From the IMG/VR virus record IMGVR_UViG_2778261593_000009, positions 1 to 29,312 of that record: 29,312 nt of DNA; one strand, 5' to 3'. A program made the position numbers and the translations under genes. The first letter of the stretch is position 1. The number at the start of each line of letters is the position of its first letter. This DNA is from a virus (taxonomy: Duplodnaviria; Heunggongvirae; Uroviricota; Caudoviricetes). Below are positions 754-11,209 of this stretch, one piece after another. The notes under the pieces are model-generated. The model was not told the origin of the DNA. It made no database searches and worked only from the letters and a program-made list of their open reading frames with translations.

Positions 754-1143
754 TCAGATTCCCTCCCAATCTATATATCCTTTATCTCTTGCCCAACGAA
801 CAACTGTGTGAGCTGTATATGTGGATGTGAAGCCGCAATAAGAACATGACACTTCATACCGGAAATTGTAGATGCTAATGGGGCCGTTCTCCTTACGTAT
901 GGGAGTGACATATTCCCAATCATTTGAATCATCAAGTTCAGGATCAGTGCCGTGAACAACCGTATGTGGAACAAATAGATCTGGGCGTCCACACGAGAGA
1001 CAAGAGGTTTTAGCACCTCTATCTGTGAGAAATTGAATAAATAATTTGGGCGTAATTTTCTGCAAGACCTGCACATGCTCACGTTCCTTATCATTAAGAG
1101 GCCTGCCAAGATATAGAAAATCATCAAATTTAAGAGGCTTCAT
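754..1143 (-). CDS. Hypothetical protein with two CxxC motifs (putative zinc ribbon); function unknown
   Basis: Track ORF 754-1158; start placed at MKPLKFDD, preceded by GGAGAAG; CLSCG and CSYCG motifs; start overlaps the 3' end of int by about 14 nt, suggesting translational coupling. Confidence 0.55.
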   Translation of the reverse strand: MKPLKFDDFLYLGRPLNDKEREHVQVLQKITPKLFIQFLTDRGAKTSCLSCGRPDLFVPHTVVHGTDPELDDSNDWEYVTPIRKENGPISIYNFRYEVSCSYCGFTSTYTAHTVVRWARDKGYIDWEGI

Positions 1144-2122
1144 ATACGGCTTCTCCAAGAGGATTAAATTTCACCGCATCCTGCAAGTAATCCGGCGCAA
1201 GATGGGCATAAATCATCGTTGTCTGAATCTTTGCGTGCCCCAGAATTTTCTGGAGCGTCAGAATATTGCCGCCGTTCATCATGAAATGACTGGCGAAGGT
1301 GTGGCGCAGCGCATGAACAGCCTGGCCATCAGGGACATCAGGTGCGACCGTTTTGATGACATCGCGAACCAATGGATAATCCAGCGTCGGAAACACCAGT
1401 TTCCCGCCCCGTTTTTTGATCTTTTCAAACAGGCTTTCAGAAATAGGAACGGTACGGTTTTTGTTGTTCTTCGTTTTTGAAAAAGTGATTCGACAATGAA
1501 GAACACGGCGCTGCTCCAGTGCCGCTACCTCGCCCCATCGCGCCCCGGTCGACAGAAGGATTTCGACAGCCAGCCGTTCATCGGGATTTTCAGCCAGTGC
1601 ATCCAGCAACTGAACACATTCAGACTTACTCAGATATCCCATTTCGCGCTCGTTAACCTTCATTCCTTTAAGGCCTTGAACGGGGTTATCGTTAAGAAAA
1701 TGGCCGGATGAGATGAGTGCGGTAAACATCGCGCTTAACGCCCCAATCTCTCGATTTATGGTGCTGGGCTGTATCCCCTGCTCTATCCTGGACACACGTA
1801 GCTCGGTGAGCATCGTTGTATTAAGTTTATGCACGCACGGGTCATCCATTGCCTCACTCAAGCGCAGCAATTTAAGGCGCGTGTTATGCCCTGACTTCAT
1901 TAGCTGGCCGTGGTATTTCCACCACAAGTCAATAAGCACTGACAGAGGACGGCGATCAATAGAGTTTCCTTTCCACTCATTGTTATGCTGTTGCGCCAGC
2001 ACCCACCGCTCATATAAAACTGCATCCGATTTCGTTTTAAATTTTTTACGAATGCGTTTGCCTTTTCGCCCCTCCGGGCGCATGTCAAGAAGATACCCTC
2101 CCGGAATTGATTTTATGCTCAT
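1130..2122 (-). CDS. int: Phage integrase, tyrosine recombinase (P2 Int-like)
   Basis: C-terminal catalytic region ALRHTFASHF...LGHAKIQTTMIYAHL (R-H-R-Y family signature); N-terminus MSIKSIPGGYLLDMRPEGRKGKRIRKKF resembles my recollection of P2 Int, so start set at that Met rather than the upstream track start. Confidence 0.9.
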   Translation of the reverse strand: MSIKSIPGGYLLDMRPEGRKGKRIRKKFKTKSDAVLYERWVLAQQHNNEWKGNSIDRRPLSVLIDLWWKYHGQLMKSGHNTRLKLLRLSEAMDDPCVHKLNTTMLTELRVSRIEQGIQPSTINREIGALSAMFTALISSGHFLNDNPVQGLKGMKVNEREMGYLSKSECVQLLDALAENPDERLAVEILLSTGARWGEVAALEQRRVLHCRITFSKTKNNKNRTVPISESLFEKIKKRGGKLVFPTLDYPLVRDVIKTVAPDVPDGQAVHALRHTFASHFMMNGGNILTLQKILGHAKIQTTMIYAHLAPDYLQDAVKFNPLGEAVYEAS

Positions 2123-2171
2123 TCGTGAAACCCCAGCGTTACAAGACCACCATGCCCCCAGCGCTCCATGA

Positions 2172-2480
2172 TTAGCCGGGCTGTGTGCCAGTCTTGCGGG
2201 GTTTTTGAGAAGGCGATGTGCTTTTTGGCCCATCAGGGGAGAGAGACGGACTGATCTGCCCAGCAGCCTCATTTGTTTTTCCCGTCATAAGCCAATTCAT
2301 GTACTTAAAAAAGCGAGGGTGATTAACAATCTTGATAAGCACTTCGCCCCCTATGTTTTCAATCCGCCCCGTTTCATAACGACGCAAAGTGCCGATAGGC
2401 ACATCAATCAGGCCGCAAAATTCTTCGCGCGTTAAATCCTCTGATTCACGAATCACTCTAATTTTTTCACCGATAAGCAT
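2172..2480 (-). CDS. C: Immunity repressor, P2 C-like
   Basis: Position immediately upstream of int on the same strand; HTH region and C-terminal FFKYMNWLMTGKTNEAAGQISPSL resembling recalled P2 C; start taken at MLIGEKIRVI (track ORF begins at an upstream alternative start). Confidence 0.7.
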   Translation of the reverse strand: MLIGEKIRVIRESEDLTREEFCGLIDVPIGTLRRYETGRIENIGGEVLIKIVNHPRFFKYMNWLMTGKTNEAAGQISPSLSPDGPKSTSPSQKPRKTGTQPG

Positions 2481-2576: not shown

Positions 2577-2855
2577 ATGGCAAAAGTCCTGAACACACAC
2601 GAACAGGCAGACTTTGAGCGTTTAGCAGCGTTCTATCCCTACCGCGATGAGCATGGGTTATCAGTACTTGAAGAAAGCCTGAAAGATTACGCAAAGCGTA
2701 CCAACCAAGCTGTTAACACAGTGAAAAGACAGGCTGACAGAGGTTCAATTCCCATCAACCAGGATGAAAAGAACTCAAGACGCACAGTAAATCTCTTCGC
2801 TCTTTTCCTGAAAACAATCAGGAGCGCAGAAAAATACGTGCAGATGACAAAATAA
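2577..2855 (+). CDS. First early-operon gene; possible Cox/Apl-like small regulator (positional inference only)
   Basis: 92-aa ORF at the position occupied by cox/apl in P2/186; no sequence similarity to P2 Cox that I can recognise. Confidence 0.5.
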   Translation: MAKVLNTHEQADFERLAAFYPYRDEHGLSVLEESLKDYAKRTNQAVNTVKRQADRGSIPINQDEKNSRRTVNLFALFLKTIRSAEKYVQMTK

Positions 2856-2869
2856 CGAGGTGTCATTTT

Positions 2870-3208
2870 ATGCTGAAGCAACGCCGTAATTTTCGTACCG
2901 GAACAGAACGCCACGCTAACCGTTTCACTACCAGTGCATCACGCAGCAACATCCGCTACAGCCTGAGTGATACACACGCAACGCCGGATGGCTACCCAGT
3001 AAAACAAATCGGCGAGCACGCCTGGCTGATTGAGAAAGCTGGAATCGTGATCCACAAATGCCCACGCAATCCGTTTACCGGAAACCGCATTTTTGCATTG
3101 AGCTGCGGCGACAATCACTTCGGGCAGGATTTCACATTATACGAAGCACTACGCACGGTTGATCGTCTGCTTCGCGGGCAAAGTTTTATTAAACAGGCTG
3201 ATTTATAA
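2870..3208 (+). CDS. Hypothetical early protein
   Basis: ATG start with upstream GAGG; tightly packed in the early operon. Confidence 0.55.
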   Translation: MLKQRRNFRTGTERHANRFTTSASRSNIRYSLSDTHATPDGYPVKQIGEHAWLIEKAGIVIHKCPRNPFTGNRIFALSCGDNHFGQDFTLYEALRTVDRLLRGQSFIKQADL

Positions 3209-3218
3209 CAGGTGCTTT

Positions 3219-3497
3219 ATGACCAAAGAGCATGCACAAGGTGTATTTATCCGTTTTATTGATTTTCGCGGTGAACTGTTATTACGCGCATCAGCCATTG
3301 ACGGAGTTGTTCCATCCGAAAAAAACGCAGCTACTTACGTTTATCTGAACGGTACGTGCCTGACTGTGGAGCTTCCGTACCAGACCGTGCGAGAAATCAT
3401 TAGCGAAGCTGAAAAGGCACGTCAGATTAATAGCGATGAACCATACATCGAAATTATCTGCATGGATTCAGAAGCAGAAATCCAGAAGGCAGATTAA
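3219..3497 (+). CDS. Hypothetical early protein
   Basis: Track ORF 3159-3497 begins at TTG; first in-frame ATG (MTKEHAQG...) chosen. Confidence 0.5.
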   Translation: MTKEHAQGVFIRFIDFRGELLLRASAIDGVVPSEKNAATYVYLNGTCLTVELPYQTVREIISEAEKARQINSDEPYIEIICMDSEAEIQKAD

Positions 3498-3508
3498 AGG
3501 GCGTTGCG

Positions 3509-3751
3509 ATGGATAAAGAATATAAAACTCTCGTCAATAAAGCACTTGAGCGCTTTCATTTTCGCTTAAGCGCATCAGGCACTCATGCTGAACGCGCAGC
3601 TCAAGAGTCATTGACCAGGGCCATCAAGAGTATATACGACACGGCTTTTTACATTGACGATCCGGATGCGCTCGACGAGCTTTCCATACTCGTCTGCGCC
3701 GCAGAAAACGGGGACCACATTGAACCGTATAACCTGGGGAATATCGCATGA
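3509..3751 (+). CDS. Hypothetical early protein
   Basis: 80-aa ORF with ATG start. Confidence 0.55.
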   Translation: MDKEYKTLVNKALERFHFRLSASGTHAERAAQESLTRAIKSIYDTAFYIDDPDALDELSILVCAAENGDHIEPYNLGNIA

Positions 3752-3953
3752 GCATATTTATCTCATGGCTTGTTCTGATTATTTCGGTGGCCTGCGCTAT
3801 TGGGATTATGCGAATTATTCATTCAGTGAAAAAGATTGAGCGTTTTTTCTCTGACGAATAACAGCACAAATAAAACACCACATTAAACAAGAAAACGTGA
3901 AAACAATCCGCACTCGCGGAGGTATTCGCACACACAAATAACGAGGATACAAA

Positions 3954-4367
3954 ATGAACGCTAAAGATACAGTCACCATCACCAAACTGAAAAAAATATC
4001 AGAAATGGAAGATGCATTAGCCAGGCAGGCACTGAGAGAAGGGGTTATTCCCTTTTATGTTCGTTCAATGGCTATAGCAGAAGTCACCGCAAGTGCTGCT
4101 GGACTTATTGAAAGCCTGAACAACGAAATCAGCACTCTCAAAGCTCAATTAGCCGGCACCAACACTTCTTCCCCCAGCATTGGGAAACGGGTCTTTATCA
4201 TCAACAACCCACAACAGGAATACATCATCCTGGCAGACCTGCAGGGGAGCTACATGATTGCTGCGGTTCCAGCAAATGAGAGCGAACCGCTGAGTGATGT
4301 ACACATCATCAGACGCGACCGGATTGCGTTCATCGACATAGCAACCTCTTCCCCATTTAACGCATAA
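3954..4367 (+). CDS. Hypothetical early protein
   Basis: 137-aa ORF; ATG preceded by ACGAGGA. Confidence 0.6.
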   Translation: MNAKDTVTITKLKKISEMEDALARQALREGVIPFYVRSMAIAEVTASAAGLIESLNNEISTLKAQLAGTNTSSPSIGKRVFIINNPQQEYIILADLQGSYMIAAVPANESEPLSDVHIIRRDRIAFIDIATSSPFNA

Positions 4368-4395
4368 CCCCATGAAAAACCAAAGGAGCACAGCG

Positions 4396-4596
4396 ATGAT
4401 CAAATCATTCTTAACCGTACATTTCACATCGGGCGGCATTGAATACGACGTGGAATACAGCCTGATCGATCACGACAGAACAGCCCCCTCCCGCAGCGAG
4501 CCCGGTATTCATCACATCTGGCTTAAGAACGGGAAGCATTACGTGGCTACTAACGTGATGTATGTGCAGGTCCTGCGCAAAAAAGCAGGTAACTGA
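4396..4596 (+). CDS. Hypothetical early protein
   Basis: Start moved to MIKSFLTV because of the strong AAGGAG 7 nt upstream. Confidence 0.5.
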   Translation: MIKSFLTVHFTSGGIEYDVEYSLIDHDRTAPSRSEPGIHHIWLKNGKHYVATNVMYVQVLRKKAGN

Positions 4597-4621
4597 TGAC
4601 TCAGGTACAGGAGCCACGCAG

Positions 4622-4867
4622 ATGACCATTCTGGACTATATCGCCGCCAATCCGGGGTGTAGCGGTGGAGGAATCGCCGCAGCACTGAATACCCCAACCA
4701 CAGCCATTAATGCTGAGTTACGCCGACTCTGGCGCAGCGGTTCAGTCATAAGAAAAGAGCGCAAAACAGGCGGTCACTTTTCTTACCAGATAAACCCGAT
4801 GCCGTTCGGGTGTAGCAATCCACTTACCAACATGTTTAACCAGCTACTGAAGGAAGCCAGAGCATGA
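4622..4867 (+). CDS. Hypothetical early protein, possible winged-helix DNA-binding protein
   Basis: Start at MTILDYIAANPG preceded by AGGAG; HTH-like segment GIAAALNTPTTAINAELRRL. Confidence 0.5.
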   Translation: MTILDYIAANPGCSGGGIAAALNTPTTAINAELRRLWRSGSVIRKERKTGGHFSYQINPMPFGCSNPLTNMFNQLLKEARA

Positions 4868-5163
4868 GCGCCATCAACCACCAGGAATTACGCGAACTGG
4901 CGACTGACCTGCAACGAATGGCAACGCCTCAAAAATTACTGGCGTTTCGCGCAATGCTCTCGCCGTCTGCTGTGCTGGCGCTGCTGGATGAGCTGGAGCA
5001 CGCCAGAACCACACCTCTCGCCATTCGCCTGACACTCCGCCATGAAATCGAGGATTTCTGCGCGACGTTGGAGGCGCCAGGCGAACCGGAAACGCCGGAA
5101 GCAATACAGCAAGAGCTGCTGCAACGCATTGACAAGGTTTTTGATTTTTTTCTGAACCAGTAA
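4864..5163 (+). CDS. Hypothetical early protein
   Basis: 99-aa ORF; ATGA overlap with the upstream gene. Confidence 0.55.
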   Translation: MSAINHQELRELATDLQRMATPQKLLAFRAMLSPSAVLALLDELEHARTTPLAIRLTLRHEIEDFCATLEAPGEPETPEAIQQELLQRIDKVFDFFLNQ

Positions 5164-5285
5164 GAAACCAGAACATGCACACACAAAAAAACCGCTTGCC
5201 ATGCCGCAATCAGTCAGGTTACATTTCTGCTGCACCTCACAAAACGGGTGCCGGGTTTCGCAGCCTGCTGACTACACAAGCGCAC

Positions 5286-5307
5286 AACCGCGCCAGCGGT
5301 TTTTTTG
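5286..5307 (+). terminator. Rho-independent terminator after the early operon
   Basis: Hairpin ACCGC-gcca-GCGGT followed by a run of seven T. Confidence 0.5.
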
Positions 5308-5485
5308 TGCGTACTGTATTGCCACGTTTTTTTCGCGTCAGAATTATGGCGGGGCGTACGGGGCCGACTTCGGTCGGGCCGGGTTCTTGTGTAGCCGGTA
5401 CTGCGAACCTCGTACGTCTCGCCACCCACAGTTTCGCAGCTCTGGATGGTGAGTTTTCACAACTTACTACACAAGGGGCCACACC

Positions 5486-5716
5486 ATGGCAAACCGCAAA
5501 CCACACCGCGCTATCGCGGAGCGTCGTCACATCCAGACTGAAATCAACCGCAGACTTTTCCGCGCATCACGCGTCGCGCAAATCATGCACATCAATATGC
5601 TGCATGAGCGCAGCCACGCACTCTCAAACATTTATTCCGCCTCTGTTTTCAGCTATCTGGCGGATGATCTGCGCGAGCTTCAGCAGCTCATCCAGCAGCA
5701 AAACAAACTCCATTAA
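5486..5716 (+). CDS. Hypothetical protein
   Basis: 76-aa ORF; ATG preceded by AAGGGG. Confidence 0.45.
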   Translation: MANRKPHRAIAERRHIQTEINRRLFRASRVAQIMHINMLHERSHALSNIYSASVFSYLADDLRELQQLIQQQNKLH

Positions 5717-5788
5717 TTCCTGTTCCGGGCCTTTCCTGCACCTTGCGGCGGGAGGCCTTCGCACATCTGTAACAAGAGGATTGCCGCA

Positions 5789-6154
5789 ATGATTCTCGCC
5801 AACGACTTTCTTGAATACCTGCTCAACACAGAGCGTGATCTTGCCGTTCGCGTGCGTGAACGTTATGACATGTACCTGAAATCCCTGCCTGTACCGCAGC
5901 TCGCTGACGGAAAGATTATTATTGATGGTCGTTACATGATTGACAGCCACGAGGGAAATTACAGGCTTTACCGTATTGAAGGTGGCACCCCGTCCGTTAT
6001 TGGCATTTACCAGCGCCCATCCTCTGCGATCGTTGATGTGATTGCCGACAGCATCCGCATCACACATCACTATGCCGACACAGAAGACACCGTGCTGGAA
6101 ATTCAGCGGCTGGCTACCGTCTGCCGCGACACCCTGAATGGCATGACGAAGTAA
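5789..6154 (+). CDS. Hypothetical protein immediately upstream of the replication gene
   Basis: 121-aa ORF; ATG preceded by AGAGGA. Confidence 0.55.
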   Translation: MILANDFLEYLLNTERDLAVRVRERYDMYLKSLPVPQLADGKIIIDGRYMIDSHEGNYRLYRIEGGTPSVIGIYQRPSSAIVDVIADSIRITHHYADTEDTVLEIQRLATVCRDTLNGMTK

Positions 6155-6160
6155 ATCACT

Positions 6161-8983
6161 ATGACGGCAGAGCACATCAGGGACTGGCAACAACCGCGCC
6201 ACGCAGTGGGGCGTGAAGGAACGGGGATCCCCGCTCCTGAATCCGCGCTTTCCTCCTGGCTGGATGCCTACCGGGCAGAGAACGAGCGCCGCAAGGAAAT
6301 GGCTGATGCGGCGTTCTCCGCCACGCCGCTGGGCAACCTGATTAATAAAAGCCTGGACGCACAGGAAAAACAGGACAAAACCATCACACTGGCAGGAGAC
6401 GCCAGAAAACAGGCACGCGGCGCAGTGGATGAAGCCATGGCCTCGCTGCGCCTGCTGCCGTCCTATCTGCGCGATCCGCTTATTCGCCACCTCTCCTTCC
6501 TGCGCAAAAAACAGGAAGCCGATCGCCGGAAAGGCAAAAAGAGCTGGCAGGCGGAACGCTATGCACGCGGAACCCTGCGCAAAATATTCGAACGTCTGGA
6601 CCGCACCGATCACCGCTGGCTGACACCGGGTTATCGCTCCCTTGCCGGACGCGAACGCCTGGACGATTTGCTTTACCTGCCGCAGCTCAACAAACACCAG
6701 ATACAGACGCTGGCCACCATGACGGCGGCGATGTTCAGCAGCACCTTCGAAAAACTCTGCGATGGCTTTGGCGCGACCGATGGCGAGCTGACCATGGATG
6801 TAACGCTGAAGGCGTATCAGATGCTGGCCCGCATGGCGTTACACCTGCACGCCATGCCTCCACATTATGACGCACTGACAACAGACAAAGACCGGAGGAA
6901 CGAACCAGACACGGAGCTGCTGCCGGGCGCAATCCTTCGCCTGACCTGTGCGGAATGGTGGAAACGCAAACTGTGGCTGTTACGTTGCGAGTGGCGGGAA
7001 GAACAACTCCGCGCCGCCTGTCTGGTTTCCAGAAAAACATCACCCTATCTGAGCCAGGACGCGTTAAGCGAGTTTCGCGCACAGCGCGAGAAAACACGCG
7101 ATTTCCTGAAAAGTTTCATGCTGGAAAATGAAGACGGGTTCACGATTGATCTCGAGACGGTGTATTACGCGGGAGTAAGTAACCCGGTTCACCGTAAGGC
7201 AGAAATGATGGCCACCATGAAGGGACTGGAACTTCTGGCCGAAGCCCGTGGCGACAGAGCGGTGTTTCTGACTGTCACCTGCCCGTCAAAATACCACGCA
7301 ACAACGGAGAACGGTCATCCGAACCCCAAATGGAACGGGGCCACCATGCGCGACTCCAGCGATTACCTGGTTAACACATTTTTTGCGGCGGTCCGCAAAA
7401 AACTGAACCGCGACGGTCTGCGCTGGTATGGCATCCGCACGGTGGAGCCTCACCATGACGGCACTGTGCACTGGCATATGATGGTCTTTGCACATCCGGA
7501 CGAGATTGAAACCATCGTGTCCCACGTCTGCGATATTGCCATTCAGGAAGACCGCCACGAGCTGGGCGATGACATAACTCCGCGTTTTAAGGCGGAGTAC
7601 GTAGACGGCTCAAAAGGCACACCAACCAGCTACATCGCCACCTACATCGGAAAGAACCTGGACAGCCGCGCCGTGGATGGCATCGACCCGAAAACGGGCA
7701 AGCCACGCGTTGACCACGAAACCGGAAAATCAATGGCCGAGAGCGTGGAACGCGCCATCGGCTGGGCGCGCCTTCACCGGGTCCGCCAGTTCCAGTTCTT
7801 TGGCATTCCCTCCCGTCAGGTGTGGCGTGAACTCCGCCGCCTTGCCAGCCAGATGGCACGCAACCCGGAAGGCCCGCAACGGCTGAAGGATGACGCAATG
7901 GATGCGGTTCTTGCTGCCGCTGATGCCGGGTGTTTTGCCACCTACATTGAAAAACAGGGTGGCGTACTTGTTCCGCGCAAGGACTACCTGATTCGCACAG
8001 CCTACGACCTCGCAGATGAGCTGAACGATTACGGCGAACAGAGTGTACAGATTTACGGGATCTGGTCGCCACTCATCGGGGAATCCTCCCGTGTGTGCAC
8101 GCACCCGGATAACTGGAAGCTGGTAAGACGTAAACCGGAAGCGGAAGACAGCACCCACGAAAATGGTTTTGACCTTCAGGGCGGCCCTGCCGCCCCTTGG
8201 ACTCGTGGCAATAACTGTCCCCGTGTACAGGAAACAGGCAACAGCGGGACAGAACTGTCGGAAGAGCAACCAACACCGTGGCCGCAGATCCCTGACAGCG
8301 TTGATGTGGATGAATGGATGCGCTCACTGAAACGGCACGAACGCCGGGCGCTGATGCGTTCGCTGCGTGACAAACAGGCAAAAAACAGCAGTGATGAAAT
8401 GCAGAGCTGGACACAGAGCCGCAAACAGCCGCGACCTTTGCCTGATAACCACGAGTTACTCGCTAAAGAATGGCGGGAGTCTGCTGAATCTCTCGGCCTG
8501 CATATTGGTGAACAGCAGATGCAGCACCTGTTACGGGGCGGCAGTCTGTACGTTGACGGCAGCATCATTGCACCGCAGGGATTTGAAATTGTACGCAAAC
8601 CGGATACCCGCCCGGACAGCCGAATCACGCAGCTCTGGCAGCGCCTGAGCCGTAATCACGGCGTAAGCAGCACGGAGATCCGCCATAACCCGGTCGCCAG
8701 TTATCTGGAACAGCTAGGGGCATCAGACCCCGAAGCCGCCGCACGCCTGGCATCCACACTTCAGCAAGACCAGAACACCATGAAAACACCCGTTACCGTG
8801 CTTTCTGACATGCTGCGCGCCATCCGTGACGCAGAGCACGCACAGAGAATCAGTGAAACCACTGAACGCGCCCGCCGCAAAGCAAACCTGCTGCGGGGTG
8901 GCCTGACCAGTGGAAACAAAAAACAGACAGAAACGGGATTCACAAATCCCGTAAATGAGCAAAAAACGCGCCGCGATATATGA
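6161..8983 (+). CDS. A: Rolling-circle replication initiation endonuclease, P2 gpA-like
   Basis: HUH-type motif VEPHHDGTVHWHMMVF and paired tyrosines YIATYIGKNLD, matching the conserved motifs of P2 A protein; 940 aa. Confidence 0.85.
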   Translation: MTAEHIRDWQQPRHAVGREGTGIPAPESALSSWLDAYRAENERRKEMADAAFSATPLGNLINKSLDAQEKQDKTITLAGDARKQARGAVDEAMASLRLLPSYLRDPLIRHLSFLRKKQEADRRKGKKSWQAERYARGTLRKIFERLDRTDHRWLTPGYRSLAGRERLDDLLYLPQLNKHQIQTLATMTAAMFSSTFEKLCDGFGATDGELTMDVTLKAYQMLARMALHLHAMPPHYDALTTDKDRRNEPDTELLPGAILRLTCAEWWKRKLWLLRCEWREEQLRAACLVSRKTSPYLSQDALSEFRAQREKTRDFLKSFMLENEDGFTIDLETVYYAGVSNPVHRKAEMMATMKGLELLAEARGDRAVFLTVTCPSKYHATTENGHPNPKWNGATMRDSSDYLVNTFFAAVRKKLNRDGLRWYGIRTVEPHHDGTVHWHMMVFAHPDEIETIVSHVCDIAIQEDRHELGDDITPRFKAEYVDGSKGTPTSYIATYIGKNLDSRAVDGIDPKTGKPRVDHETGKSMAESVERAIGWARLHRVRQFQFFGIPSRQVWRELRRLASQMARNPEGPQRLKDDAMDAVLAAADAGCFATYIEKQGGVLVPRKDYLIRTAYDLADELNDYGEQSVQIYGIWSPLIGESSRVCTHPDNWKLVRRKPEAEDSTHENGFDLQGGPAAPWTRGNNCPRVQETGNSGTELSEEQPTPWPQIPDSVDVDEWMRSLKRHERRALMRSLRDKQAKNSSDEMQSWTQSRKQPRPLPDNHELLAKEWRESAESLGLHIGEQQMQHLLRGGSLYVDGSIIAPQGFEIVRKPDTRPDSRITQLWQRLSRNHGVSSTEIRHNPVASYLEQLGASDPEAAARLASTLQQDQNTMKTPVTVLSDMLRAIRDAEHAQRISETTERARRKANLLRGGLTSGNKKQTETGFTNPVNEQKTRRDI

Positions 8984-9023
8984 AGCGCGCACAAAACAGG
9001 CGAAAGCGGGAGTTCAGAATCCC
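8935..9023. promoter_or_regulatory. Two copies of an imperfect palindrome flanking the parM promoter region; candidate ParR-binding centromere/operator (parC-like)
   Basis: GGGATTcacaAATCCC (about 8935-8950) and GGGAGTTCAGAATCCC (about 9008-9023), both followed by GTAA. Confidence 0.35.
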
Positions 9024-9058
9024 GTAACCGATTAATTAATCAACATAAGGAAATCGAC

Positions 9059-10018
9059 ATGAAAATTTGTATCGACGACGGCTCCACCAACATCAAGCTG
9101 GCATGGACTGAGAACGGCGAACGCCGCAACGCCATCAGCCCGAACAGCTTCAAGTCGGAATGGTCAGCGCCGTTCGGTGGCACGCAGCCCGCGAACTACA
9201 TGCTTGATGGCGTGCGCTATGGTTTTGATCCGGTCAGCGATCGCTTTGTCCAGACGACCGACACGCAATACCAGTACAGCGATGTGAATGTTATTGCCAT
9301 TCATCATGCGCTGGTCAAATCAGGCATCACACCACAGGAGGTGGATGTGGTTGTCACCCTGCCACTGAGCGAGTATTTCGATACAAACGCACAGCCGGAC
9401 ATGGCCAACATCAGCCGCAAAAAAGCGAACGTTATGCGCCCGGTGGAGTACCAGAACGGCGAAGCATTCACTATCCGTAACGTGCGGGTTATGCCTGAAT
9501 CCATTCCGGCAGGCTTTAAAGCACTGGCTGACATGAGTCCGTTTGAATCCCTGCTGATTGTGGATTTGGGCGGAACCACGCTGGATGTGGCAAAGGTTCA
9601 GGGGCAACTGGCAGGTATCAGCCAGGTGTTTTGCGATCCACACGTAGGCGTTTCTCTGATGGCCGATGCCGTGCTGTCGGTGATGGCCACCAACGGTATG
9701 CGTACCAGTCACCACATCGCTAATACCATTATCGAACATCGCCACGATGAAGCCTGGCTGCGCCAGCACATCCACAATGACGCGCATTACGCCAGCCTGA
9801 TGGCAGTTATTCGTGAAAAGGAGGAAACACTGAAACAACGCGTGATCCGCGCGCTGGCGGGTTTTTCGGGTTACGGGCGGGTGATGGTTGTCGGTGGAGG
9901 GGCGGAGATTGTGGCACCCGCCATCCGCGAAGCCTGCGGAGTTAATGCGACTTTCATCGCGGACGGGGTGCCACAGTTTGCTCTGGTTAATGGGCTGTAC
10001 GCAATGGACAAGGAGTAA
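9059..10018 (+). CDS. parM: Actin-like segregation ATPase ParM (StbA)
   Basis: N-terminus MKICIDDGSTNIKLAW and motifs DVNVIAIHHAL, VMPESIPAG, LIVDLGGTTLD, FSGYGRVMVVGGGAE, LVNGLY closely parallel plasmid R1 ParM as I recall it. Confidence 0.85.
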   Translation: MKICIDDGSTNIKLAWTENGERRNAISPNSFKSEWSAPFGGTQPANYMLDGVRYGFDPVSDRFVQTTDTQYQYSDVNVIAIHHALVKSGITPQEVDVVVTLPLSEYFDTNAQPDMANISRKKANVMRPVEYQNGEAFTIRNVRVMPESIPAGFKALADMSPFESLLIVDLGGTTLDVAKVQGQLAGISQVFCDPHVGVSLMADAVLSVMATNGMRTSHHIANTIIEHRHDEAWLRQHIHNDAHYASLMAVIREKEETLKQRVIRALAGFSGYGRVMVVGGGAEIVAPAIREACGVNATFIADGVPQFALVNGLYAMDKE

Positions 10019-10022
10019 ACCA

Positions 10023-10334
10023 ATGACGACACCAACCAGACGGATAAGTTTCTATCTGAAGCCCGCCGCCGTCAAGAACGAAGGCGAAGCATGCGCCTGG
10101 CTGGACAGCCTTACACCAGAAGCCCGCAAAAGCGGCCAACGCGTGGCTTTTCTGGCCGGGCTGGCACTTCTGAAAATGAATCCGGCAGAGGCTTACCGAC
10201 TGGCTGCATGGGCTGATGATGAAGCGTTATCAGTGACACAGACCAGGACAGAACGCCCCGCATCACAGCCAGTATCAACCGCACAGATAACCAGCCAGAT
10301 GGCCGGGAATATCCAGGCGTTATTTCCTGAATAA
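10023..10334 (+). CDS. parR: ParR-like centromere-binding adaptor
   Basis: Small gene immediately downstream of parM with AGGAG SD; ISFYLKP...AFLAGLALL resembles the R1 ParR N-terminal pattern. Confidence 0.6.
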   Translation: MTTPTRRISFYLKPAAVKNEGEACAWLDSLTPEARKSGQRVAFLAGLALLKMNPAEAYRLAAWADDEALSVTQTRTERPASQPVSTAQITSQMAGNIQALFPE

Positions 10335-10460
10335 CACAACATCAGGGCATATTTGCCCTGATATCCCCTCTCAAACAAGGCAGCAACAAACTGCCCGTTG
10401 AATAACACAAATTACATGTTATGATTAACTCATAAGTAACCCCCGTTTGTGTCTTACGTT

Positions 10461-10835
10461 ATGAATGATCAAGATTATGGGCTTGATACCCTATTGGATA
10501 TGCACGGCTACCAGCACCACATGGATAATGGCTACTGGTGGAAGATTGAAGCCTACCGGGTCAGCCCAAGCCCATTCAGACCCCACGGGATACGTTACAA
10601 TCTGACATTACATGACCAGTACAATTCCCGCATATTTGGGATGGATAATGCTCATGGAATAAAACCACCGAAGAAGGGCCGTTTCACAGGGAAATTAACT
10701 GTTTACGACCATGTGCACCGCACAACATTTGACAAAGGCTATCCCTATGAATTCATTTCTGCGGAACAGCTTTTATCTGACTTCTTCGATAACGTAGATC
10801 GCATCATTGACGAAATCACAAGGGGGAATCAATGA
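10461..10835 (+). CDS. Hypothetical protein, first gene of a coupled two-gene module
   Basis: Track ORF starts at GTG 10449; first ATG at 10461 (MNDQDYGLD...); His/Tyr/Trp-rich; I recognise no family. Confidence 0.55.
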   Translation: MNDQDYGLDTLLDMHGYQHHMDNGYWWKIEAYRVSPSPFRPHGIRYNLTLHDQYNSRIFGMDNAHGIKPPKKGRFTGKLTVYDHVHRTTFDKGYPYEFISAEQLLSDFFDNVDRIIDEITRGNQ

Positions 10836-11209
10836 AAGCCCGTATCGGGATTATCCCTGAAAATATCCTCCGCCAGCGGCTACTGGATGTCGCCAGAGGA
10901 AAACGTAAACCACTGCCAGATGAACCAAAAGTATGGTTTTCTTCACTGCACGCTGTAGGGCAAGCTCTGAGTAACGAAAACATTGCTCTGTTACGTCTGA
11001 TGGATGAAGAAAAACCTCAAACAATGACAGAGTTGGCAGAAATGTCAGGCAGGAAACTGAGCAATCTTTCAGTAACCTTAAAAATGCTGAGCGGCTACGG
11101 TTTTGTCAGCCTGGAAAAGAAAGGCAATACCATTCTCCCGAAAGCATTATTCACCGATTTTGAAATCATCATTGATCCATCTGTCGGAACCACTCATCGG
11201 GCCGCCTGA
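10832..11209 (+). CDS. Putative winged-helix DNA-binding protein, second gene of the module
   Basis: ATGA overlap with the upstream gene; HTH-like segment MTELAEMSGRKLSNLSVTLKMLSGYGFVSLEK. Confidence 0.55.
   Translation: MKARIGIIPENILRQRLLDVARGKRKPLPDEPKVWFSSLHAVGQALSNENIALLRLMDEEKPQTMTELAEMSGRKLSNLSVTLKMLSGYGFVSLEKKGNTILPKALFTDFEIIIDPSVGTTHRAA

What the first reader, a model, noticed from the sequence alone, without database searches (positions are those of the whole stretch)
8930..9058. Paired imperfect palindromes upstream of parM, candidate centromere/operator
Two related 16-bp palindromes (GGGATTcacaAATCCC and GGGAGTTCAGAATCCC, each followed by GTAA) lie about 73 bp apart, one inside the 3' end of the Rep gene and one just before parM. 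This is the expected place for a ParR-bound parC site, though R1 parC uses ten direct iterons, so the architecture here would differ.
Basis: seen in the sequence. Interest (0 to 1): 0.4.

Follow-up and report, generated by a model that had tools for sequence, protein, structure and literature searches.

The report
Two-box candidate centromere of prophage ParMR
Two matching 16-bp boxes exactly 73 bp apart, just upstream of an actin-like partition operon in a very common E. coli P2-type prophage, are conserved across distant relatives. They are most likely the DNA site where the partition adaptor ParR binds, an unusually small variant of a plasmid centromere.

Summary
CGGGATTCACAAATCCCGTAA (8934-8954) and CGGGAGTTCAGAATCCCGTAA (9007-9027) lie 73 bp apart. 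One is in the last codons of the gpA-type Rep gene and the other is 35 nt before parM. They are the only two copies in the 29-kb window.

The window is an integrated P88-like (Xuanwuvirus) P2-family prophage, found in 1372 of 5426 complete E. coli genomes. The order gpA-parM-parR is kept in phages of Hafnia, Plesiomonas, Serratia and Enterobacter.

- A GGG-N10-CCC pair with 73/73/72 bp spacing, at the same distance from the parM ATG, survives in three further lineages. The spacer and the overlapping reading frames there are unalignable.
- Hairpin strength is not conserved, so this is a duplex DNA site, not an RNA element.
- The P2-type origin (hairpin plus nick site) maps about 720 bp upstream, inside gpA.
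- The ParR N-terminal strand TRRISFYL is invariant wherever the boxes occur. Lineages with NRKISFYL lack the boxes and carry IncL/M-like iterons instead.

Best reading (confidence about 0.6): a minimal bipartite ParR-binding parC. It is not R1-type, because an R1 iteron matrix does not find it. ParR binding and the promoter are untested, so the operator role stays open. Moderately interesting: a new variant of a known kind.

The parts
8917..8954 (+). Repeat unit 1: A-rich left flank CAAAAAACAGACAGAAAC, then box 1 GGGATTCACAAATCCC (8935-8950), then GTAA. It lies inside the last 22 codons of the Rep ORF.
   Evidence: Box arms conserved in 135 E. coli-type loci and in L298. GGG-N10-CCC kept in L004 and L007.
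8951..9007 (.). 57-bp spacer between the boxes. It contains the Rep stop codon (8981-8983) and a GC-rich/ATATAT centre. Its length is conserved (57, 57, 56 bp) but its sequence is not.
   Evidence: The spacer centre is the most diverged part between the E. coli type and L298.
8990..9027 (+). Repeat unit 2: A-rich left flank CACAAAACAGGCGAAAGC, then box 2 GGGAGTTCAGAATCCC (9008-9023), then GTAA. It is intergenic and ends 31 nt before the parM ATG.
   Evidence: Population consensus GGGATTT(C/A)A(G/A)AATCC(C/T); the window variant is rare, 2 of 135.
9035..9051 (+). Conserved ATTAATCAA element (9035-9043) and the parM ribosome-binding site AAGGA (9047-9051). It could be a weak -10 region, but this is unproven.
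   Evidence: ATTAATCAA is present upstream of parM in the window, L009, L004 and L007. No promoter is called by the scan.
9059..10018 (+). parM, actin-like partition ATPase (319 aa).
   Evidence: Pfam StbA_N E 4.4e-82 and ParM C-terminal domain E 1.3e-68. R1 ParM structure 1MWK E 9.3e-93. 46.5% identity to an R1-type ParM, at most 52% to any plasmid ParM.
10023..10334 (+). parR, the adaptor predicted to bind the boxes (103 aa). N-terminal strand TRRISFYLKP and a C-terminal NIxALFPE tail.
   Evidence: Pfam Plasmid_stab_B E 1.6e-24. A profile of 20 alleles hits pB171 StbB/ParR 2JD3, E 3.6e-6. The N-terminal strand is invariant across alleles down to 44% identity.
6161..8983 (+). gpA-family rolling-circle Rep (940 aa). 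Its roughly 140-aa C-terminal tail overlaps unit 1.
   Evidence: Pfam Phage_GPA E 1.8e-129. P2 A aligns only to residues 77-800. The tail is not homologous to the Hafnia ORF that overlaps the boxes there.
8179..8218 (+). P2-type origin: hairpin GGGCGGC-CCT-GCCGCCC, then the nick-site homologue CTT|GGACTCGTGGCAATAACTGT. It is listed only to show that ori is elsewhere; it is not part of the feature.
   Evidence: P2 nick annotated at 29892. Alignment with P2, L004, L007 and L008.

Best explanation
The two 38-bp units (8917-8954 and 8990-9027) are the cis-acting ParR-binding site, a parC-type centromere, of a ParMRC partition cassette carried by a P88-like P2-family prophage. Each unit has a 16-bp GGGATT-N4-AATCCC box at its core.

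**Proposed mechanism (inferred)**
1. ParR is a ribbon-helix-helix dimer. Its N-terminal strand TRRISFYL enters the major groove.
2. ParR binds each box as a dimer of dimers. The half-sites GGGATT and AATCCC are centred one helical turn apart.
3. Binding may spread over the A-rich flank of each unit.
4. The two boxes lie 73 bp apart, about seven helical turns, so they face the same side of the helix. Together they would form one small bent or wrapped ParR-DNA complex.
5. The C-terminal ParR tails (NIxALFPE) capture the ends of ParM filaments, which push the bound DNA circles apart.

The cassette ends the rightward early operon of an integrating phage, directly after the replication gene. It therefore most likely acts on excised or incoming circular phage genomes, not on a resident plasmid.

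**Shown here:** gene identities, the repeat, its uniqueness, its conservation and spacing, and its independence from coding sequence, hairpin formation and ori.

**Inferred:** that ParR is the binder, the stoichiometry, and the substrate.
For: 1. **Position.** The boxes sit directly upstream of parM-parR, where characterised ParMRC systems have parC (PMC2241845, PMC9426499). ParM and ParR identities are solid.
2. **Conservation across lineages**:

| Lineage | ParM identity | Box 1 | Box 2 | Spacing | Box 2 start before ATG |
|---|---|---|---|---|---|
| Window (E. coli) | 100% | GGGATTCACAAATCCC | GGGAGTTCAGAATCCC | 73 | 51 |
| L298 (Hafnia) | 94% | GGGATTCATGAATCCC | GGGATTTGAAAATCCC | 73 | 51 |
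| L004 (Hafnia) | 62% | GGGATTGAGGAAACCC | GGGTTCATTAAATCCC | 73 | 55 |
| L007 (Plesiomonas) | 63% | GGGACAACAAAAACCC | GGGACAACACTAACCC | 72 | 59 |

   A pair at that spacing arises in 18, 0 and 4 of 200,000 shuffles for the window, L004 and L007.
3. **DNA-level constraint.** The reading frame over the boxes differs in each lineage. The Rep stop is in the spacer (window), 10 nt after box 1 (L007), inside box 2 (L298), or a separate 167-aa ORF ends in box 2 (L004). The overlapping proteins are not homologous (E 0.41).
4. **Pattern of variation.** In 135 E. coli-type loci the box arms are nearly fixed while the box centre varies. Against L298 the arms and A-rich flanks are kept while the spacer centre diverges.
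5. **Concerted change.** The two boxes of one lineage resemble each other more than they resemble boxes of other lineages. This is expected for sites of an element-encoded binder that co-evolves with them.
6. **Match to ParR.** TRRISFYL is invariant in every lineage with the boxes, even where the rest of ParR falls to 35-57% identity. Serratia/Enterobacter phages with NRKISFYL have no GGG-N10-CCC upstream of parM. They have inverted 19-bp arms containing ATTTTTCT, which resemble the iterons of IncL/M and IncFIA plasmids, whose ParR strand is NRKCSFYI.
7. **Repeats travel with parM.** In those phages the repeats stay with parM even when a methylase gene separates it from gpA.
8. **Precedents for small centromeres.** pB171 ParR, the solved relative hit, binds just two 10-bp repeats (PMC9426499). 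[quoted passage not shown]
Against: - No binding data exist; the link to ParR is positional and correlative.
- The strand-to-box correlation amounts to one evolutionary switch.
- All ParR proteins characterised so far bind direct repeats, usually more of them (PMC9426499). Four ParR dimers may be too few to build the ring or helix seen for R1 and pSK41.
- An R1 iteron matrix does not single out the region.
- No promoter is detected in or beside the boxes, unlike plasmid parC sites. The classical operator half of parC function is therefore unsupported.
- gpA is also conserved next to the boxes in every lineage that has them, so linkage to gpA is not formally broken within that subfamily.
- In the E. 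coli type both boxes also score as terminator-like hairpins on the minus strand.
Confidence: 0.6

Rival explanations
1. The boxes bind a different sequence-specific protein: gpA at an accessory site, another phage regulator (Cox, C repressor, Ogr), or a host factor. They would control read-through or expression from gene A into parMR rather than acting as a centromere.
For: - gpA is adjacent in all four box-bearing lineages.
- Some rolling-circle initiators use a second, distant binding locus (abstract of PMC1851628, listed).
- No direct evidence ties ParR to the boxes.
Against: - The P2-type ori hairpin and nick site are conserved about 720 bp upstream, at 8179-8218.
- The box sequence changes between lineages in step, which argues against a conserved host factor.
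- No further copies occur near the early or late promoters or anywhere else in 29 kb. Sites for Cox, C or Ogr would be expected there.
- In the Serratia/Enterobacter phages the parM-upstream repeats follow parM, not gpA.
Confidence: 0.15
2. The boxes are tandem intrinsic terminators for leftward (minus-strand) transcription. They would shield gene A and the early operon from antisense transcripts coming from the late or accessory region.
For: - On the minus strand both E. coli-type boxes form 7-8 bp GC-rich hairpins followed by T-rich tracts and are called terminator-like.
- The small palindromes upstream of parM in the Serratia phage are called the same way.
- Hairpin energies are -11 and -10.4 kcal/mol.
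Against: - Hairpins are weak or absent in L004 and L007 (-4.6 to -6.7 kcal/mol, z -0.45 to -2.2), and no terminator is called there. The GGG-N10-CCC pair and its spacing are nevertheless kept.
- Tandem terminators have no reason to keep a fixed 72-73 bp spacing.
- All genes from 2577 to 11209 are on the plus strand, and a stronger minus-strand terminator-like hairpin already lies at 10338-10365.
Confidence: 0.1
3. The boxes act as RNA hairpins in a polycistronic A-parM transcript, serving processing, stability or translational control of parM.
For: - The gap between Rep and parM is only 75 nt, no plus-strand terminator is called, and read-through is likely.
- The E. coli-type hairpins are stable.
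- The CCC to CCT variant of box 2 would keep a G-U pair.
Against: - Hairpin potential is not conserved in L004 or L007.
- The common T5C change in box 1 (45 of 135 loci) breaks a pair and is not compensated.
- There is no Rfam match in the region.
- A fixed 73-nt spacing has no obvious RNA rationale.
Confidence: 0.07
4. The pair is a functionless leftover of a local duplication.
For: The two 38-nt units are direct repeats of each other.
Against: - The pair is retained with the same spacing and position in lineages whose spacer and flanks have diverged beyond alignment.
- Arms are conserved while centres vary in 135 loci.
Confidence: 0.04

Closest known systems
parC of plasmid R1 (ParMRC, type II partition)
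   Same: - It lies immediately upstream of a homologous parM-parR pair. ParM hits the R1 ParM structure at E 9e-93 and is 46.5% identical to an R1-type ParM.
- It has two repeat blocks separated by a core of similar size: 39 bp in R1 (PMC2241845), 35 bp between the 38-nt units here.
- The top strand is rich in A and C.
   Different: - R1 has ten 11-bp direct iterons in two sets of five, flanking the par promoter (PMC2241845; seen in L095). Here there are two 38-nt units, each built around a 16-bp box with dyad symmetry.
- An R1-iteron matrix does not detect the region, and no promoter is evident.
- Half of the site overlaps the coding end of the replication gene of an integrating phage.
ParR binding site of plasmid pB171 par1
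   Same: - pB171 ParR (StbB, PDB 2JD3) is the only solved relative of this ParR found here (E 3.6e-6).
- It binds a very small site, two 10-bp repeats upstream of parM (PMC9426499).
   Different: The pB171 repeats are described as direct repeats. Here the two sites are 73 bp apart, and in the E. coli type each is internally palindromic.
srpC of SXT/R391 integrative conjugative elements (srpMRC)
   Same: - It is a type II-like partition cassette on an element that normally sits integrated in the chromosome.
- The centromere lies upstream of the actin-like gene. [quoted passage not shown]
   Different: - SrpR has no detectable homology to ParR (PMC4489591), whereas this ParR is a bona fide StbB/ParR.
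- The host element there is an ICE, not a phage.
AlpA-AlpC-alpS of the Corynebacterium prophage CGP3
   Same: An integrated prophage encodes an actin-like filament protein and an adaptor that binds repeats at its own operon. The system is needed for efficient replication of the excised phage DNA (PMC4446434).
   Different: - The gene order is reversed (adaptor first).
- There are 24 short TTAAnnG repeats.
- The proteins are only distantly related to ParM and ParR.

Membership tests
Type II (ParMRC) partition locus | Actin-like ParM ATPase | tested here: met
   Pfam StbA_N E 4.4e-82 and ParM C-terminal domain E 1.3e-68. R1 ParM 1MWK E 9.3e-93 over residues 2-316.
Type II (ParMRC) partition locus | Small ParR adaptor gene directly downstream of parM, with an N-terminal ribbon-helix-helix domain and a C-terminal ParM-binding tail | tested here: met
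   - Pfam Plasmid_stab_B E 1.6e-24.
- Profile hit to the pB171 ParR structure 2JD3, E 3.6e-6.
- Conserved N-terminal strand and C-terminal N-x3-LFP tail, aligned with R1, IncL/M, IncFIA and IncI ParR.
- The fold itself was not confirmed: the AF2 monomer has pLDDT 61 and Foldseek found nothing.
Type II (ParMRC) partition locus | Repeated cis site (parC) upstream of parM | tested here: met
   There are two 38-nt units or 16-bp boxes. They are unique in the window and conserved with fixed spacing in four lineages.
Type II (ParMRC) partition locus | ParR binds parC specifically and cooperatively | not testable with these tools
   This needs EMSA, footprinting or ChIP. The only support is correlative: an invariant TRRISFYL strand wherever the boxes occur, and a different strand with different repeats in the Serratia/Enterobacter phages.
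Type II (ParMRC) partition locus | The cassette stabilises an unstable replicon, and parC exerts incompatibility | not testable with these tools
   This needs a genetic experiment.
Type II (ParMRC) partition locus | The par promoter lies within parC and is autoregulated by ParR | tested here: inconclusive
   No sigma-70-like site is called in the window, L004, L007 or L009. The IncFIA promoter is called, but the proven R1 promoter is missed by the same scan.
R1-type parC | Ten 11-bp direct iterons (A-rich, ending in CCC) in two sets of five | tested here: not met
   A weight matrix built from the ten iterons of an R1-type plasmid (L095) places none of its top 25 window hits in 8910-9030. Only two repeat units exist.
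Intrinsic (rho-independent) terminator | GC-rich hairpin followed by a U-run, conserved in relatives | tested here: not met
   - On the plus strand there is no T-run.
- On the minus strand the boxes are called in the E. coli type only.
- No terminator is called and the hairpins are weak in L004 and L007.
P2-type replication origin (gpA nick site) | Hairpin plus the conserved nick sequence CTC|GGAGTCCTGTCAATAACTGT inside gene A | tested here: not met
   That sequence and its hairpin map to 8179-8218, not to the boxes.
Curated RNA families (Rfam 15) | Match at gathering score | tested here: not met
   There is no match in 8900-9060. The only window matches are isrK and C4, at 5232-5429.

The most novel reading that the evidence does not exclude
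A minimal, two-box ParR centromere, half of it written over the end of the replication gene, lets a normally integrating P2-type phage actively position or segregate its circular genomes. These could be replication products, incoming DNA before integration, or an occasional episomal state. On this reading a quarter of E. coli strains carry a working plasmid-type centromere and actin motor inside a chromosomal prophage. It would also be the first ParR known to use widely spaced sites, here 73 bp apart (palindromic in the E. coli type), rather than arrays of adjacent direct iterons.
Probability: 0.25. Interest if true: 0.65.

Novelty: new variant of a known kind. Interest (0 to 1): 0.45.

Why it matters
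- **Prevalence.** P88-like prophages sit in about 25% of complete E. coli genomes, and their ParM is under strong constraint: 98-99.7% protein identity against 95-97% DNA identity. In six literature searches of the held library I found no study of this cassette or its centromere.
- **Experiments become direct.** A defined 110-bp cis site makes the question testable. One can ask whether a plasmid-type actin segregation machine works on an integrating phage, and at what stage: replication, lysogenisation or an episomal carrier state.
- **Mechanism.** For partition biology it would be a natural minimal parC, with two sites seven helical turns apart. That is useful for asking how few ParR dimers suffice to cap a ParM filament.
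- **Evolution.** It also shows a centromere and a protein tail sharing the same DNA. The Rep reading frame runs into the site and stops at a different place in each lineage.

Tried and rejected
- **R1-type iterons.** A weight matrix from ten R1-type iterons does not find the region, so membership of the R1 parC type is rejected.
- **gpA origin.** Rejected after mapping the P2 nick site and hairpin to 8179-8218.
- **Conserved hairpin or cruciform.** Single boxes and the whole 111-nt region fold well only in the E. coli type (z -3.6 and -4.9). They do not in L004 or L007 (z -0.7 and -1.8).
- **Further copies.** None in the window by pattern or profile search.
- **Scan of viral contigs with CGGGATTNNNNAATCCCG.** It returned many P88-like loci with the 73-bp pair, plus single matches that were not examined and could be chance hits in so large a collection. 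It was not informative beyond that.
- **More intermediate lineages.**
  - The genome-contig scan gave only close relatives.
  - The viral-contig scan returned only E. coli-type loci.
  - The metagenome scan gave E. coli-type loci and plasmid-type loci.
  - A homologue search with the Plesiomonas ParR found only itself.
- **ParR structure.** The AF2 monomer was low confidence (pLDDT 61, N-terminal strand not formed). Foldseek against the PDB gave nothing below E 5.
- **Promoter scans.** No site was called, but the negative is weak because the scan also misses the R1 promoter.
- **Rep tail as the source of conservation.** Protein homology between the E. coli Rep tail and the Hafnia ORF covering the boxes was rejected (E 0.41).
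- **Liu and Haggard-Ljungquist 1994 (PMC332061).** The paper is not held. The annotated P2 record was used instead.
Full report
**1. What is in the sequence**

One search shows CGGGATTCACAAATCCCGTAA at 8934-8954 and CGGGAGTTCAGAATCCCGTAA at 9007-9027. Start-to-start spacing is 73 bp.
- The first lies in the last codons of a 940-aa ORF (6161-8983).
- The second lies in the 75-bp gap before an ORF starting at 9059.
- The repeat is longer than the finding says. Units of 38 nt (8917-8954 and 8990-9027) are 74% identical, each with an A-rich left flank, the 16-bp box and GTAA.
- Pattern searches and a profile of the 38-nt unit find no other copy in 29 kb.

**2. Context**

Gene identities:
- The upstream ORF is a gpA-family rolling-circle initiator (Pfam Phage_GPA, E 1.8e-129).
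- The next ORF is ParM (R1 ParM structure, E 9e-93).
- The next, 10023-10334, is a StbB/ParR adaptor (Pfam E 1.6e-24; a profile of 20 alleles hits the pB171 ParR structure 2JD3 at E 3.6e-6).

Layout of the window:
- It begins with an integrase (1130-2272, minus strand) and a repressor.
- All ORFs assigned above between 2577 and 11209 are on the plus strand.
- These are followed by ogr, portal and terminase on the minus strand.

The layout is that of a P2-type prophage, with parMR at the far end of the early operon, right after the replication gene.

Identity and prevalence:
- DNA searches identify it as a P88-like phage (Xuanwuvirus).
- It is present in 1372 of 5426 complete E. coli genomes, at 1541 chromosomal places and 2 plasmid places.
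- ParM is at least 95% identical within this group and at most 52% identical to any plasmid ParM; it is 46.5% identical to an R1-type ParM.

**3. Comparative test**

Protein searches and contig look-ups found the same gpA-parM-parR arrangement in phages of Hafnia (L004), Plesiomonas (L007), Serratia (L008, L092) and Enterobacter (L090), and in the metagenomic contig L094. A second Hafnia lineage is L298/L299, with ParM 94% identical but upstream DNA only 79% identical.

| Lineage | ParM identity | Box 1 | Box 2 | Spacing (bp) | Box 2 start before ATG (nt) |
|---|---|---|---|---|---|
| Window (E. coli) | 100% | GGGATTCACAAATCCC | GGGAGTTCAGAATCCC | 73 | 51 |
| L298 (Hafnia) | 94% | GGGATTCATGAATCCC | GGGATTTGAAAATCCC | 73 | 51 |
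| L004 (Hafnia) | 62% | GGGATTGAGGAAACCC | GGGTTCATTAAATCCC | 73 | 55 |
| L007 (Plesiomonas) | 63% | GGGACAACAAAAACCC | GGGACAACACTAACCC | 72 | 59 |

- The spacers (57, 57 and 56 bp) cannot be aligned between the E. coli type, L004 and L007.
- A pair at that spacing arises in 18, 0 and 4 of 200,000 shuffles of the respective upstream regions.
- The reading frame across the boxes differs in every lineage, and the overlapping proteins are not homologous. The constraint is therefore on the DNA.
- In 135 E. coli-type loci (91 distinct sequences) the arms GGGATT and AATCC(C/T) are nearly fixed, while the centre of box 2 flips between CAG and AAA. The window's GGGAGT is a rare variant, 2 of 135.
- Against L298, the arms and the A-rich flanks are conserved, and the centre of the spacer is the most diverged part.

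**4. What it is not**

- *Not a conserved hairpin.* Folding energies are -11 and -10.4 kcal/mol in the E. coli type but -4.6 to -6.7 in L004 and L007, with z-scores near background. The 111-nt region as a whole behaves the same way. The frequent T5C change in box 1 breaks a pair without compensation.
- *Not a curated RNA family.* There is no Rfam match there.
- *Not the replication origin.* The annotated P2 nick site (29892) and its flanking hairpin align to 8179-8218 inside gpA, in the window and in L004, L007 and L008.
- *Not R1-type iterons.* A matrix from the ten iterons of an R1-type plasmid puts none of its best 25 hits in the region.

**5. Link to ParR**

- The N-terminal strand TRRISFYL(K/N)P is invariant in every ParR from a lineage with the boxes. 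That includes E. coli-type alleles whose remainder has diverged to 44-57% identity, and the Plesiomonas protein at 35%.
- The Serratia/Enterobacter phages have NRKISFYL and no GGG-N10-CCC upstream of parM. Instead they carry two 19-bp inverted arms, GGGAACGAAATAGAAAAAT and ATTTTTCTATTTCGTTCCC, flanked by small palindromes.
- The ATTTTTCT core of those arms matches the iterons of IncL/M and IncFIA plasmids, whose ParR strand is NRKCSFYI.
- In L090 and L094 these repeats stay with parM although a methylase gene separates parM from gpA.

Across this ParM clade the DNA upstream of parM therefore holds lineage-specific repeats that change together with ParR. This is correlative evidence, and the strand switch is a single event.

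**6. Mechanism proposed**

- ParR dimers are ribbon-helix-helix by homology to 2JD3. Two dimers would bind each box, whose half-sites are centred about 10 bp apart.
- The 73-bp spacing, about seven helical turns, puts the two boxes on one face of the helix. That suits a single bent or wrapped complex, comparable in outline to the U-shaped R1 ParR-parC complex with two bound blocks and an unbound core (PMC2241845).
- The conserved C-terminal N-x3-LFP tail would hold the ParM filament end.
- The substrate is probably the circular phage genome after excision or infection, since the cassette belongs to the early operon of an integrating phage.

Precedents:
- CGP3 AlpAC/alpS is needed for efficient prophage replication (PMC4446434).
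- pB171 ParR binds only two 10-bp repeats (PMC9426499).

**7. Open points**

- Binding is untested.
- No promoter is called in or near the boxes in any lineage. The same scan finds the IncFIA par promoter but misses the proven R1 one, so the operator role is undecided.
- On the minus strand the E. coli-type boxes look like terminators. I rank that reading low because the hairpins are not conserved while the spacing is.

**8. Verdict**

The interpretation as a ParR site is the best-supported reading (about 0.6), but it rests on position, conservation and covariation only. It is a new architectural variant of a known kind of element, in a very common prophage, and of moderate interest.

Noticed in passing
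window 5232-5306 and 5342-5429 (+): Rfam matches above gathering score to the isrK Hfq-binding sRNA (64.1 bits) and the C4 antisense RNA (83.2 bits). They lie side by side in the early region between ORFs 4864-5163 and 5789-6154. The inverted ACAAAAAAACCGC words at 5183(+) and 5298(-), which also appear in L009 and on one strand in L004 and L007, belong to this region.
   Followed up: partly
window 8179-8218 (+): A P2-type replication origin lies inside gene A. It has the hairpin GGGCGGC-CCT-GCCGCCC followed by the nick-site homologue CTT|GGACTCGTGGCAATAACTGT. It is conserved with P2 and with the Hafnia, Plesiomonas and Serratia phages.
   Followed up: yes
window 8560-8983 (Rep residues about 800-940): - The Rep protein carries a tail of about 140 aa that is absent from P2 A, since the alignment stops at residue 800.
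- The tail is not homologous to the separate 167-aa ORF at the same place in Hafnia L004.
- The Rep reading frame ends at a different point relative to the boxes in each lineage: in the spacer, after box 1, or inside box 2.
- This suggests the tail is an incidental read-through over the cis site.
   Followed up: partly
window 10023-10334 (parR), with a breakpoint near 10077: - ParR is far more variable than ParM within E. coli-type phages. Alleles range from 96% down to 44% identity, while ParM stays at 91% or more.
- Many related phages match the window only up to about 10077, in mid-parR.
- The variation lies in helices 1-2 and the linker. The N-terminal strand and the C-terminal tail are kept.
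- The E. coli ParR (103 aa) also lacks a helix of about 10 residues that is present in the Hafnia L004, Plesiomonas, Serratia and plasmid proteins.
   Followed up: partly
window 10338-10365: A palindrome with 9-bp perfect arms, ATCAGGGCA-TATT-TGCCCTGAT, lies 4 nt after the parR stop. It is called terminator-like on the minus strand. Homology among P88-like phages ends just beyond it, at about 10362-10377, so it marks the right edge of the par module.
   Followed up: no
L297 (NZ_CP148288.1, whole record): A 34,461-bp circular record deposited as an E. coli plasmid is a complete P88-like phage genome. It includes the integrase, Cox, gpA, ParM, ParR and the structural genes. It could be an excised or episomal form, or an assembly of induced phage DNA. 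Only 2 of 1543 places in complete E. coli genomes are on plasmids.
   Followed up: partly
L008 4863-4968, L092, L090, L094 (upstream of parM): The Serratia/Enterobacter P2-like phages have a different and striking parM-upstream structure. It has 19-bp inverted arms with IncL/M-like ATTTTTCT iterons, about 28 nt between them, and small GC-rich palindromes outside them. Single-strand folding gives z = -8.1 in L008.
   Followed up: partly
L002 (NZ_JBQPOM010000071.1): A 226-kb contig labelled Vagococcus sp. carries a ParM 98% identical to the E. coli phage protein. This looks like contamination or a mislabelled assembly rather than a phage of a Gram-positive host.
   Followed up: no
window 10449-11209 (+): Two overlapping accessory genes sit between parR and ogr: a 128-aa protein with no Pfam match and a 125-aa winged-helix protein (HVO_A0114 family, E 1e-15). 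This slot holds different cargo in relatives: HicAB, a KAP NTPase, a DUF3800 protein, an Rrf2 regulator and SSB.
   Followed up: no
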